Below, piece by piece: positions 8,283-9,142 of a DNA stretch of 15,731 nt. The first letter of the stretch is position 1, and each line of letters starts with the position of its first letter. The position numbers and the translations under genes are program-made. The notes below the pieces were generated by a model. That model was given only the letters and a program-made list of their open reading frames with translations. It did not search any database and was not told the origin of the DNA. This stretch comes from a virus (lineage: Duplodnaviria; Heunggongvirae; Uroviricota; Caudoviricetes). The stretch is taken from the IMG/VR virus record IMGVR_UViG_2529292976_000006, one strand, 5' to 3'.

Positions 8283-8301
8283 GAACAGGACCAGATAAAT
8301 A

Positions 8302-8329
8302 GCCCGGCCCATGCGCCGGGTTTTTCTTT
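8302..8329 (+). terminator. Rho-independent terminator closing the cI/methyltransferase/endonuclease transcription unit (tIMM-like)
   Basis: GC stem CCCGGC (8303-8308) / GCCGGG (8315-8320) with a 6 nt loop, followed by TTTTTCTTT, 20 nt after the endonuclease stop. Confidence 0.65.
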
Positions 8330-8532
8330 GCATATCCCCTCCTGTTATCTGTCCCCTTAAAAAATAAATCACTTTAAAAATCAGTTAAGTAATAATTTCT
8401 CGTCCTTAAAAAAGCACCGACGGTATTTACATGAAAATAACCGCAAGTTATATTTATTTCAAGCCAGAAACATCGCGCCCTTACACAGGGCTACATAAAT
8501 CAGTCGTACGGCGCGACTTAACCCGCCGCAAA

Positions 8533-8545
8533 ATGCTCTTTAACA
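8533..8545 (+). promoter_or_regulatory. boxA-like antitermination motif (nut-like)
   Basis: Exact 13-mer TGCTCTTTAACAA, matching the rrn/lambdoid boxA consensus as recalled, on the strand of the leftward early operon downstream of the immunity terminator. No convincing boxB hairpin identified downstream. Confidence 0.4.
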
Positions 8546-8865
8546 ATCTGGAGCTTTACAGCGTCAATGACCTGTTTAGACCCCTACACGTAAACGTGCT
8601 GTATCATCGGGTGCGATCCGGTCGATGAGAGAGTATCCCCGCGCGAGAGCGAGAACGGCGTGAGAACGGGCAACACTGGCAGGAAGTTGGCGCTGACCAA
8701 TACAGGGAATGTTTTGGGGTGTGGTGAAGGGTTCATGGACGGGAATATGTCGCACGTAAAGCGGCGAGGCCCGAGGGACTATTGCTGAAGATAAGTAGGC
8801 CGAATCGGGTCGAAATGGGTCTCCCACCTGCCACATCGCCAAAGCATTTCCGAGAAAGGACGGTA

Positions 8866-8894
8866 TTGACTGCGTGTGATGCCGGGGCTATATT
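8866..8894 (+). promoter_or_regulatory. Near-consensus sigma70 promoter (TTGACT, 17 bp spacer, TATATT)
   Basis: -35 TTGACT at 8866-8871, 17 nt spacer, -10 TATATT at 8889-8894. Predicted transcription start about 8901. Confidence 0.5.
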
Positions 8895-8955
8895 GGGCGA
8901 ACACCTTATAAAACGGGTGTCGGGATTCTCACCCCGCTGACAATCGAGGCGATAC

Positions 8956-8977
8956 AGACGCGCCAGCGTCTTTTTTT
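8956..8977 (+). terminator. Rho-independent terminator about 75 nt downstream of the 8866 promoter
   Basis: Stem AGACGC (8956-8961) / GCGTCT (8966-8971), loop GCCA, followed by six T (8972-8977). Confidence 0.5.
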
Positions 8978-9142
8978 GTATCGACATACACGCACATCTT
9001 ATCAATGGTGGGCTGTATGGGGCCGACTTCGGTCGGGCTGGTTCCCTTGATTGCCAGTTGTGAGAACCCTGTACAGTCCACCGCCAGCGAGCTTCTCACC
9101 TCCTGCGGTGGTTATTAATCACCAATCAAGGAGGCTGCCATT

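What the first reader, a model, noticed from the sequence alone, without database searches (positions are those of the whole stretch)
8283..9142. About 860 bp of apparently non-coding sequence where an N antiterminator gene would be expected
Between the immunity terminator and the first early-left gene (Rha family, 9143) I find no ORF with a credible start, SD and composition; the ORF-track entries here (65, 88, 90, 112 aa) overlap each other and look spurious. Lambdoid phages normally have pL, oL, nutL and N in this interval. The stretch is heterogeneous: an AT-rich part (8341-8470) with two ccttaaaaaa direct repeats (8355-8364 and 8404-8413), then a GC- and purine-rich part (8620-8860). This suggests either a decayed N gene or an N-independent early-left control mechanism.
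Basis: partly seen in the sequence, partly recalled or inferred. Interest (0 to 1): 0.5.

Follow-up and report, generated by a model that had tools for sequence, protein, structure and literature searches.

The report
RNA-controlled antirepressor cassette replacing N
The "empty" 860 bp of this Shiga-toxin phage is its early-left control region: a repressor-controlled promoter, a leftover N-utilisation leader with no N gene, and two known small RNAs (IsrK and C4) that gate the antirepressor-like gene downstream. It is ordinary in kind but informative about how the N-less Stx phages are built.

Summary
Window 8283-9142 has no credible protein gene and no N, and no N homologue was found anywhere in the identical Oslovirus PA2-type Stx2a phage genome. 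The interval is nevertheless fully occupied:

- **Immunity terminator:** 8301-8322.
- **Operators and pL:** two CI-operator-like dyads and a pL-like promoter (8334-8454).
- **N-utilisation leader:** 8534-8850 is 95% identical to the annotated nutL-to-N leader of phage phi80, with a perfect rrn-type boxA and a boxB-like hairpin. The match stops where phi80 and 933W have the N ribosome-binding site.
- **Second promoter:** 8866-8894.
- **IsrK / c4-a1b1 sRNA:** 8901-8976, Rfam 58.7 bits.
- **C4 antisense RNA:** 9001-9088, Rfam 77.1 bits.
- **Targets:** the C4 target sites a2 and b2 follow, and b2 covers the Shine-Dalgarno of rha (9143).

Across nine phages the C4 a'/b' segments covary with a1/b1 (in IsrK) and a2/b2. 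Near-identical Oslovirus relatives carry at least four different specificities.

So N was cleanly replaced, not decayed, by a P1 immI-like / Gifsy-1 isrK-orf45-anrP-like RNA switch. The parts are known families, and the lack of N in this phage group is already published.

One question stays open. The phi80-type leader is near-invariant in at least 120 viral contigs, yet it precedes hypervariable first genes, none of which is a recognised N.

The parts
8301..8331 (+). Intrinsic terminator (8-bp GC-rich stem plus T-run) ending the cI / methylase / BsuBI-PstI endonuclease immunity operon (tImm). A minus-strand terminator-like match overlaps the same hairpin.
   Evidence: stem 8301-8322, then TTTCTTTGCA. 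One search aligns 8300-8331 with 933W L006 2159-2189, which overlaps the annotated tM terminator.
8334..8348 (.). Distal CI-operator-like 15-bp dyad (ATCCCCTCCTGTTAT).
   Evidence: The pattern ATMAC-N5-GTKAT (at least 9 of 10) occurs only 4 times in 15.7 kb: two sites in oR (4987-5001, 5035-5049) and two in this gap.
8355..8413 (+). Two CCTTAAAAAA direct repeats (8355-8364 and 8404-8413) in the AT-rich region upstream of pL. Their role is unknown; a UP-element or a bending-protein site are guesses.
8426..8454 (+). Predicted early-left promoter pL (TTTACA, 17 nt, TATATT). The predicted transcription start is near 8461.
   Evidence: The operator dyad 8437-8451 overlaps its spacer and -10. Homology with phages that share this leader but differ upstream of it starts at window 8448-8460, the usual immunity-region boundary.
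8437..8451 (.). Proximal CI-operator-like dyad (ATAACCGCAAGTTAT) overlapping pL.
   Evidence: It matches the oR site ATAACCAAAGGTGAT (5035-5049).
8534..8546 (+). boxA, TGCTCTTTAACAA, identical to the rrn boxA consensus as I recall it.
   Evidence: it is the only exact copy in the window and in the whole phage genome. It aligns with the annotated 'nutL boxA' of phi80.
8587..8598 (+). boxB-like hairpin CACG-UAAA-CGUG, equivalent to the annotated 'nutL core' of phi80.
   Evidence: In relatives the loop varies (UAAA, AAAA, AGAAA, AAAAA) while the stem is kept.
8534..8704 (+). phi80-type nutL leader module. It is a near-invariant structured RNA with a predicted closing helix (8560-8568 with 8686-8694) and an internal hairpin (8596-8636) that shows compensatory changes.
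   Evidence: 95% identical to phi80. At least 120 IMG/VR contigs carry it, and 88 distinct sequences are nearly invariant over this stretch. RNAalifold gives 42 pairs, 7 of them with compensatory changes.
8705..8851 (+). Relic of the N-leader long hairpin (5' arm 8705-8726, 3' arm 8825-8851). In phi80, 933W, HK97 and HK106 this hairpin ends just before the N Shine-Dalgarno and ATG.
   Evidence: About 92% identical to 933W, HK97 and HK106 over 8713-8844. MFE -63.5 kcal/mol, z=-3.9. The arms differ between the window and 933W in a way that keeps pairing (read from the alignment). The P13374/TL-2011c lineage has lost 8722-8833 but keeps an 18-bp base of the hairpin.
8866..8894 (+). Second promoter, PisrK (TTGACT, 17 nt, TATATT). 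It ends 7 nt before the start of IsrK.
   Evidence: Promoter-like hexamers sit at the same position upstream of isrK in P27, N15, SfV, P88 and RCS47 (sequences).
8901..8976 (+). IsrK sRNA, the a1b1 leader of the C4 system. It has two 5' hairpins and an intrinsic terminator (stem 8956-8971 plus U-run). It carries a1 (UUCUCAC, 8926-8932) and b1 (CAAUCGAGG, 8941-8949).
   Evidence: Rfam RF01394, 58.7 bits against a gathering score of 50. Terminator. a1 and b1 are complementary to C4. The homologous region in P27 also matches RF03163 c4-a1b1.
9001..9088 (+). C4-type antisense RNA. The b' loop is UUCCCUUGAUUG (9042-9053) and the a' segment is GUGAGAA (9060-9066). The 3' end has a tRNA-like GCCA.
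   Evidence: Rfam RF01695, 77.1 bits against a gathering score of 45. Of 28 pairs, 14 show compensatory changes in 9 phages.
9005..9118 (+). orf45-like 37-codon leader ORF overlapping C4. It has two in-frame ATGs (9005 and 9017). It is in frame with rha and separated from it by one TAA (9116-9118).
   Evidence: Read from the sequence. phi346 annotates it as a CDS. PGAP calls 9017-9790 'Rha family, internal stop'. P13374 has CAA instead of TAA, so the ORF is fused there. It corresponds to Gifsy-1 orf45.
9093..9134 (+). C4 target region. It holds a2 (UUCUCAC, 9093-9099) and b2 (CAAUCAAGG, 9123-9131). b2 overlaps the rha Shine-Dalgarno AAGGAGG (9128-9134).
   Evidence: (7-bp and 9-bp duplexes, cognate-specific across 9 phages).
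9143..9790 (+). rha, the first protein gene of the early-left operon. It has a Phage_pRha N-terminal domain and an antirepressor-type C-terminal domain. kil, gamL, recT and exo follow.
   Evidence: Pfam PF09669, 2e-32. PHROG transcriptional-regulator and anti-repressor families. The C-terminus is shared with the P13374 ORF6N antirepressor.

Best explanation
The interval is the early-left regulatory region of an N-less Stx2a phage (genus Oslovirus, PA2 type).

Shown from sequence and homology:
- The immunity operon ends at a terminator.
- A promoter overlapped by a CI-operator-like dyad (pL) starts a roughly 680-nt untranslated leader.
- The first part of that leader is a phi80-type nutL module (rrn-type boxA, boxB-like hairpin, structured domain) plus the N-leader hairpin.
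- Exactly where N's ribosome-binding site should begin, the sequence switches to a cassette: promoter, IsrK (a1b1) sRNA with terminator, C4 antisense RNA, a2/b2 targets, then rha.

Inferred by analogy with P1/P7 immI and Gifsy-1 isrK-orf45-anrP:
- Transcripts from PisrK (and from pL after induction) mostly stop at the IsrK terminator. Read-through RNA is processed to C4.
- C4 pairs through a' and b' with a2 and b2, occludes the rha Shine-Dalgarno and blocks Rha synthesis.
- Through loss of translation, C4 probably also lets Rho terminate before kil-gam-recT-exo.
- IsrK carries decoy copies a1 and b1. It pairs with C4, in cis as an inactive fold or in trans as a competitor, so the IsrK:C4 ratio sets whether the antirepressor-like Rha and the early-left operon are expressed.

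N-type antitermination is not available to this phage. The nutL module is either an orphan relic or works with host Nus factors alone.
For: - Identity: the gap is 100% identical to PA2, VT2phi_272, ArgO145 and phi346.
- RNA genes: Rfam gathering-level hits for isrK and C4. Both carry a matching promoter and terminator.
- C4 structure: 14 of 28 pairs show compensatory changes.
- Three-way covariation of a'/a1/a2 and b'/b1/b2 in 9 phages, with cognate-only pairing.
- At least four a' specificities in otherwise near-identical Oslovirus loci. In 16 of the 23 loci both a1 and a2 were found as exact complements of a'.
- b2 overlaps the rha Shine-Dalgarno.
- The MFE fold of the read-through RNA pairs a1/b1 with a'/b', z=-5.1. 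This matches 'structure A' of the Gifsy-1 study.
- The same isrK-C4 pair precedes ant in the P1-like phage RCS47 and antirepressors in N15 and P27.
- nutL and N-leader homology with sharp breakpoints.
- Operator dyads are found only in oR and in this gap.
- No N homologue was found in the whole genome, while Q is present.
- There is no second boxA/boxB copy, hence no nutR.
Against: - Nothing here is measured. Transcription starts, termination efficiency, C4 processing and repression are inferred from consensus matches and homology.
- Unlike P1, there is no icd gene between C4 and the regulated gene.
- Unlike Gifsy-1, the leader ORF stops 24 nt before the rha ATG instead of overlapping it, so translational coupling may differ.
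- Whether Rha acts as an antirepressor of this phage's own CI is unknown. That CI has an S24 self-cleavage domain and may not need one.
- The IsrK terminator lies between pL and the whole early-left operon. How enough read-through is achieved without N is unexplained.
Confidence: 0.8

Rival explanations
1. The nutL module is still functional without a phage N. The perfect rrn-type boxA, with the structured domain behind it, recruits host Nus factors as in rrn operons. It would protect the long untranslated pL leader from Rho and help read through the IsrK terminator. This would be an N-independent early-left antitermination device working alongside the C4 switch.
For: - boxA matches the rrn consensus, as I recall it, at 13 of 13 positions, whereas phi80 has one mismatch.
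- The module is near-invariant in at least 120 viral contigs, with compensatory pairs.
- The gene that follows it is hypervariable. None of 10 representative first genes is a recognised N, and phi80 'N' itself has no N-family match.
- pL to the rha ATG is about 680 nt untranslated, a typical Rho target (inference).
Against: - No functional data.
- From general knowledge, boxA-only complexes act on Rho-dependent terminators, not on strong intrinsic ones like the IsrK terminator.
- All Oslovirus copies are too similar to one another to show purifying selection.
- The module has no second copy in the rightward operon.
Confidence: 0.25
2. The nutL and N-leader segment is a non-functional relic left by the recombination that swapped N for the isrK-C4-rha cassette. 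It is simply transcribed as inert leader.
For: - No N homologue was found and there is no nutR in the phage.
- A sister lineage (P13374, TL-2011c) has lost 112 bp of it, window 8722-8833.
- The breakpoint is a clean module joint.
Against: - The deletion spares boxA, boxB and the structured domain, and leaves an intact 18-bp hairpin base.
- The module is extremely conserved across contexts that lack a recognisable N.
Confidence: 0.45
3. The orphan nutL is used in trans. An N-type protein from a co-resident lambdoid prophage or a superinfecting phage loads at this site and boosts early-left expression of the Stx phage (prophage cross-talk).
For: - The site is 95% identical to the phi80 nutL region, with an identical boxB-like hairpin.
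- E. coli genomes often hold several places matching parts of this leader, up to 4 per genome.
Against: - It is not shown that any protein recognises this boxB-like hairpin.
- phi80 'N' is only a positional annotation.
- No co-occurrence analysis was done.
Confidence: 0.1
4. The gap hides a real small protein gene, for example the 65-aa ORF 8431-8628 or a decayed N.
For: PHANOTATE called four small CDS here in phi346. The leader ORF 9005-9118 is probably translated, by analogy with Gifsy-1 orf45.
Against: - No significant family hit.
- The 65-aa ORF starts upstream of the predicted pL start and overlaps nucleotide-invariant RNA elements.
- There is no tblastn similarity to N proteins.
- Most deposited records of this phage list no annotated feature under this interval.
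Confidence: 0.05

Closest known systems
P1/P7 immI region (c4 antisense RNA, icd, ant)
   Same: - One transcript carries a1/b1 decoys, the C4 RNA and the a2/b2 targets, in that order.
- C4 loops pair with the ribosome-binding region of the downstream gene.
- Specificity is set by a few bases and differs between close relatives (heteroimmunity).
- The same Rfam C4 and isrK/a1b1 hits occur in the P1-like phage RCS47 upstream of ant.
   Different: - There is no icd gene; b2 overlaps the Shine-Dalgarno of the Rha gene itself.
- The regulated protein is Rha-family rather than P1 Ant.
- The cassette sits in the N position of a lambdoid early-left operon, downstream of pL and nutL, rather than in a separate immunity region.
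Gifsy-1 isrK-orf45-anrP locus (Hershko-Shalev et al. 2016, PMC4825925)
   Same: - IsrK has its own promoter and a leaky terminator.
- A leader ORF with two in-frame AUGs overlaps the processed RNA (STnc1160, which I equate with C4 by position).
- An antirepressor-like gene lies downstream.
- The middle of IsrK pairs with the leader in an inactive fold.
   Different: - The leader ORF is 37 rather than 45 codons. It ends 24 nt before the rha ATG instead of overlapping it (AUGA).
- There is no antQ operon upstream.
- Here the cassette heads the recombination/kil operon of a Stx phage.
N15 anti-immunity region and the P4 CI RNA / seqA-seqC system
   Same: A processed small RNA made from the leader of the operon it controls, with complementary sites on both sides. 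N15 gives the same isrK and C4 Rfam hits before its antirepressor operon.
   Different: From general knowledge, N15 CA RNA and P4 CI RNA act mainly by promoting transcription termination. Here the target overlaps a Shine-Dalgarno, so translational repression is the expected primary step.
phi80 / lambda-type nutL and N early antitermination
   Same: boxA, a boxB-like hairpin and the N-leader hairpin lie just downstream of a CI-controlled pL. The stretch is 95% identical to phi80 and about 92% identical to the N leader of 933W and HK97.
   Different: No N gene was found in the phage and there is no nutR. The leader ends at a module joint in front of PisrK.
rrn operon boxA (Nus-factor) antitermination
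   Same: A 13-nt boxA identical to the rrn consensus as I recall it, at the start of a long untranslated RNA.
   Different: There is no evidence that a host-only complex forms here. The context is a phage mRNA leader.

Membership tests
C4 antisense RNA (Rfam RF01695) / P1 immI-type switch | Matches the covariance model above the curated gathering score | tested here: met
   77.1 bits against 45, full length 1-87, window 9001-9088.
C4 antisense RNA (Rfam RF01695) / P1 immI-type switch | Long closing stem with two inner hairpins, supported by covariation | tested here: met
   28 pairs, 14 with compensatory changes among 9 phage copies.
C4 antisense RNA (Rfam RF01695) / P1 immI-type switch | Two exposed segments (a', b') complementary to a2/b2 just downstream, over the ribosome-binding site of the regulated gene | tested here: met
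   a' 9060-9066 pairs with a2 9093-9099 (7 bp). b' 9045-9053 pairs with b2 9123-9131 (9 bp), which overlaps the Shine-Dalgarno at 9128-9134. Pairing is cognate-specific across 9 phages.
C4 antisense RNA (Rfam RF01695) / P1 immI-type switch | Upstream decoy copies a1/b1 on the same transcript | tested here: met
   a1 8926-8932 and b1 8941-8949 lie inside IsrK. The homologous P27 region hits RF03163 c4-a1b1.
C4 antisense RNA (Rfam RF01695) / P1 immI-type switch | An icd-like ORF between C4 and the antirepressor, whose translation is the direct target | tested here: not met
   No ORF lies between 9118 and 9143; b2 overlaps the Shine-Dalgarno of rha itself.
C4 antisense RNA (Rfam RF01695) / P1 immI-type switch | Processing of C4 from the precursor by RNase P, and repression in vivo | not testable with these tools
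   Only a tRNA-like GCCA after the closing stem is visible.
IsrK (Rfam RF01394) / Gifsy-1 isrK-orf45-anrP | Matches the covariance model above the gathering score, with its own promoter and intrinsic terminator | tested here: met
   58.7 bits against 50. Promoter 8866-8894 and terminator 8956-8971 plus T-run.
IsrK (Rfam RF01394) / Gifsy-1 isrK-orf45-anrP | Leader ORF with two in-frame AUGs whose stop overlaps the start of the antirepressor gene (translational coupling) | tested here: not met
   Two in-frame ATGs are present (9005, 9017). However, the TAA is at 9116-9118, 24 nt before the rha ATG. In P13374 the ORF is fused to rha instead.
IsrK (Rfam RF01394) / Gifsy-1 isrK-orf45-anrP | Antirepressor-like gene downstream | tested here: met
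   Rha domain plus a C-terminal domain matching PHROG anti-repressor families. Antirepressor activity itself was not tested.
Lambda-type N/nut antitermination | boxA and boxB elements in the leader downstream of pL | tested here: met
   boxA at 8534-8546 and hairpin at 8587-8598. Both align with the nutL boxA and core annotated in phi80.
Lambda-type N/nut antitermination | A phage-encoded N protein | tested here: not met
   No tblastn hit with four N proteins in the window or in the whole identical phage genome (best E=0.57). None is annotated. Highly divergent N proteins could escape this test.
Lambda-type N/nut antitermination | A second nut site (nutR) in the rightward operon | tested here: not met
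   There is no other boxA or boxB-like copy in the window or in the whole genome.
HK022 put RNA (factor-independent antitermination) | A roughly 70-nt two-stem RNA just downstream of pL, with a second copy downstream of pR | tested here: inconclusive
   No sequence similarity to HK022 24-30 kb. That is a weak test, because that record does not annotate put. No repeated copy lies in the rightward operon. The conserved domain here is larger and contains boxA.

The most novel reading that the evidence does not exclude
The phi80-type 'nutL' leader (window 8534-8704) is not an N-utilisation site at all. It would be an autonomous, N-independent leader RNA: an rrn-type boxA plus a conserved structured domain that makes RNA polymerase resistant to Rho, and perhaps to intrinsic terminators, using host factors only. 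That would explain two things. It is near-invariant in at least 120 viral contigs while the gene behind it is hypervariable and never a recognisable N. And N-less Stx phages such as PA2 and the O104:H4 phage keep it.
Probability: 0.2. Interest if true: 0.65.

Novelty: new member of a known kind. Interest (0 to 1): 0.35.

Why it matters
Oslovirus-type Stx2a phages (PA2, TL-2011c, and the O104:H4 outbreak phage P13374) are linked to severe disease. They are described as lacking N, cII and cIII, with an 'alternative mechanism' left open (PMC4122784). This analysis supplies part of that mechanism.

The N slot holds a P1 immI-like RNA switch (IsrK/a1b1, C4, Rha) behind a retained nutL leader. Specificity varies between near-identical phages.

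Since toxin output depends on prophage induction, an RNA-gated antirepressor-like gene at the head of the early-left operon is a concrete, testable control point. It also links two systems that a recent review (PMC12197685) treats separately, IsrK and c4. And it flags PGAP's 'Rha pseudogene' and 'ash/Icd-like protein' calls as side-effects of RNA genes.

Tried and rejected
- **Protein-coding readings of the gap.** PHROG and Pfam scans of eight ORFs gave nothing significant.
- **Decayed N.** tblastn with phi80, 933W, HK97 and HK106 N against the window and the whole phi346 genome found nothing.
- **The 'antitermination' ORF26 of P13374 as an N substitute.** It is an ORF6N-type antirepressor sharing the Rha C-terminal domain, so it is mis-annotated. 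It is also absent from the window.
- **A nutR copy or a second boxA/boxB.** None found.
- **Weak Rfam hits.** bxd_1, Trp_leader and Betaproteobacteria toxic sRNA in 8255-8760 are far below their gathering scores and were dismissed as chance.
- **The 'attR' feature in phage GER2 under this region.** It is a 12-bp feature that I took for an automatic att-site prediction and did not follow up.
- **HK022 put similarity.** No sequence match, but the test is weak.
- **Simple k-mer sharing between oR and oL.** This gave no clear operator. A dyad pattern search then did.
- **Literature.** I found no description of the nutL relic or of isrK/C4 in these Stx phages. Absence from this library is not proof of absence.
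- **tRNA/tmRNA scan.** None found.
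Full report
**What the window is.** The 860-bp interval is 100% identical to several published Stx-converting phages of the genus Oslovirus: PA2, VT2phi_272, ArgO145, phi346 and phi349. It is about 97% identical, apart from a 112-bp indel, to TL-2011c and the O104:H4 outbreak phage P13374. Upstream lie cro (minus strand), cI (HTH plus Peptidase_S24), an Eco57I-type methylase and a BsuBI/PstI-type endonuclease. Downstream lie a Rha-family gene, kil, a GamL-like gene, recT and a YqaJ exonuclease. 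About 125 of 5,426 complete E. coli genomes carry at least 80% of the interval.

**Checking the observation.**
- The ORFs in the gap overlap each other and have no significant family match.
- There is an intrinsic terminator at 8301-8322 that aligns with the annotated tM of 933W.
- The two CCTTAAAAAA repeats are at the stated positions.
- The AT-rich stretch (30-39% GC) and the G-rich stretch (55-61% GC, skew up to +0.5) are real.
- No N homologue is found in the window or in the complete genome of the identical phage phi346. That genome does encode a Q antiterminator.
- The lack of N, cII and cIII in this phage group is already noted in the literature, with 'an alternative mechanism' left open (PMC4122784).

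**Left third: terminator, operators, pL.**
- A 15-bp dyad pattern (ATMAC-N5-GTKAT, at least 9 of 10) occurs only four times in the 15.7-kb window. Two sites lie between cI and cro (4987-5001, 5035-5049). Two lie in the gap (8334-8348, 8437-8451).
- The proximal gap site overlaps the spacer and -10 of a sigma-70-like promoter (TTTACA, 17 nt, TATATT, 8426-8454).
- Phages that share this leader but differ upstream of it start to align at window 8448-8460, the classical immunity boundary at pL.
- I therefore read 8334-8454 as oL/pL, with a predicted start near 8461.
- The 65-aa ORF begins at 8431, inside this promoter.

**Middle: a nutL leader without N.**
- Window 8534-8850 is 95.3% identical to phage phi80. 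The match starts exactly at phi80's annotated 'nutL boxA', includes its 'nutL core', and ends 36 nt before the phi80 N start codon.
- Window 8713-8844 is about 92% identical to the stretch between nutL and N in 933W, HK97 and HK106. There it ends about 18 nt before the N ATG.
- The boxA (8534-8546, TGCTCTTTAACAA) matches the rrn boxA consensus, as I recall it, at all 13 positions.
- The boxB-like hairpin is CACG-UAAA-CGUG (8587-8598).
- Region 8705-8851 folds into a long hairpin (z=-3.9). Its two arms differ between the window and 933W in a way that keeps pairing (read from the alignment).
- After the 3' arm (...CCAAAGCAUUUC), phi80 and 933W continue into the N Shine-Dalgarno and ATG. The window continues into a promoter.
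- There is no residual N coding sequence and no second boxA/boxB copy anywhere in the phage.
- N was therefore replaced at a module joint, not eroded in place.
- The P13374/TL-2011c lineage has since lost 8722-8833, leaving an 18-bp hairpin base.

**Right third: a P1 immI-type RNA switch.**
- Rfam finds isrK (RF01394, 58.7 bits, gathering score 50) at 8901-8976 and C4 antisense RNA (RF01695, 77.1 bits, gathering score 45) at 9001-9088.
- A near-consensus promoter (TTGACT, 17 nt, TATATT, 8866-8894) ends 7 nt before the first base of IsrK.
- IsrK ends in an intrinsic terminator (8956-8971 plus U-run).
- The same isrK+C4 pair occurs before ant in the P1-like phage RCS47, before antirepressor operons in N15 and P27, and in SfV and P88. 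In P27 the isrK region also matches RF03163, 'a1, b1 targets of C4'.
- C4's structure has 14 of 28 pairs with compensatory changes.

**Covariation of the pairing segments.**
- The a' segment of C4 (GUGAGAA, 9060-9066) is exactly complementary to a1 (UUCUCAC, 8926-8932, a loop of IsrK). It is equally complementary to a2 (UUCUCAC, 9093-9099, just 3' of C4).
- The b' loop (CCUUGAUUG within 9042-9053) is complementary to b1 (8941-8949) and to b2 (CAAUCAAGG, 9123-9131). b2 overlaps the rha Shine-Dalgarno AAGGAGG (9128-9134; ATG at 9143).
- In all nine phages these elements change together, and cross-pairing between non-cognate phages is poor.
- Among 23 Oslovirus-like IMG/VR loci there are at least four a' types: GUGAGAA, GUCCUAA, GUAGCAA and GUGCUAA. 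In 16 of them both a1 and a2 were found as exact complements of a'.
- This is the signature of P1/P7-type antisense immunity specificity.

**How it most likely works (inferred).** I rely on the Gifsy-1 study (PMC4825925) and on the P1 literature as I recall it (Citron and Schuster 1990; Biere et al. 1992).
- PisrK transcripts mostly end as IsrK. Read-through RNA is processed to C4; its 3' GCCA fits an RNase P substrate.
- C4 occludes the rha ribosome-binding site through b'/b2, helped by a'/a2.
- Untranslated rha RNA would then be open to Rho, which would also silence kil-gam-recT-exo.
- IsrK holds decoy sites. The MFE fold of 8901-9160 pairs a1/b1 with a'/b' (z=-5.1). This matches the 'inactive structure A' of the Gifsy-1 work, in which free IsrK in trans activates translation.
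- A 37-codon ORF (9005-9118, two in-frame ATGs) overlaps C4 like Gifsy-1 orf45, but it stops 24 nt before rha. In P13374 the stop is CAA and the ORF is fused to rha. PGAP consequently calls the window version a Rha pseudogene with an internal stop.

**What remains unexplained.** pL transcripts must cross about 390 nt of leader and the IsrK terminator to reach any protein gene, and the phage has no N. An exact 22-mer from the nutL module recovered at least 120 IMG/VR contigs.
- Window 8534 to about 8704 is nearly invariant in 88 distinct sequences. It has a predicted closing helix (8560-8568 with 8686-8694) and a hairpin (8596-8636) with compensatory pairs.
- The first gene after the leader is hypervariable. 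Only about 9 loci have phi80 'N', 23 have isrK+C4, and ten representative first genes match only PHROGs of unknown function or none.
- phi80 'N' itself has no Pfam N_peptide match, whereas 933W N does.
- In many loci the conserved 3' arm plus a conserved ribosome-binding region abuts unrelated ORFs.
- This leaves room for the leader being N-independent (boxA plus host Nus factors, or RNA-only). I did not and cannot test that here.

**Verdict.** The finding is real and now largely explained by known kinds of elements. 'Decayed N' is not supported. Novelty is modest: known RNA families in published phage genomes whose N-lessness is already documented. I found no paper that describes the nutL relic or the isrK/C4 cassette in these Stx phages.

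Noticed in passing
window 8534-8704; loci L019-L138: The phi80-type 'nutL' leader is near-invariant in at least 120 IMG/VR contigs. The first gene behind it is hypervariable and never a recognised N, and phi80 'N' itself falls in a PHROG of unknown function.
   Followed up: partly
L002 (P13374) 5536-5619: An sRNA-Xcc1 (RF02221, 79.6 bits) sits inside the annotated 'antB2' ORF. It lies just upstream of a second antirepressor (ORF6N domain) that the record mislabels 'antitermination'. This roughly 1.1-kb insert is absent from the window.
   Followed up: partly
window 9060-9066, 8926-8932, 9093-9099; L002, L008, L009 and IMG/VR loci: Near-identical Oslovirus phages differ by coordinated changes at a', a1 and a2. 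At least four specificities were seen, which implies heteroimmune immI-like types within one phage genus.
   Followed up: yes
window 9005-9790: The C4-overlapping leader ORF is in frame with rha and separated from it by a single TAA (9116-9118). PGAP annotates a Rha pseudogene with an internal stop. Relatives with CAA have a fused 262-283 aa ORF. Elsewhere PGAP labels the C4 region 'ash family protein' or 'Icd-like protein'. The ORF also weakly matches Pfam Phage_ASH (E=0.01). I suspect these protein labels arise from translating an RNA gene.
   Followed up: partly
window 5863-8282: A type II restriction-modification pair (Eco57I-type methylase, BsuBI/PstI endonuclease) is inserted between cI and pL. 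It is co-oriented with cI and therefore probably expressed from the prophage.
   Followed up: no
L008 (Stx2a_JNE122398) 7841-7957, minus strand: An ALIL pseudoknot (RF01497, 120 bits), which I read as an IS3-family frameshift element, in the early-left operon of a related Stx2a phage.
   Followed up: no
window 8722-8833 versus L002 4438-4446: The TL-2011c/P13374 lineage has a 112-bp deletion that removes the inside of the N-leader hairpin. A perfect 18-bp hairpin base remains.
   Followed up: yes
window 10706-10718, minus strand: A one-mismatch boxA-like 13-mer (TGCTGTTTAACAA) lies on the minus strand at the start of recT. It is probably chance, since matches with up to three mismatches are not enriched over shuffles.
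   Followed up: no
window 8355-8364 and 8404-8413: The CCTTAAAAAA direct repeats, 49 bp apart and upstream of pL, remain without an assigned role. They are not the operator dyads.
   Followed up: partly
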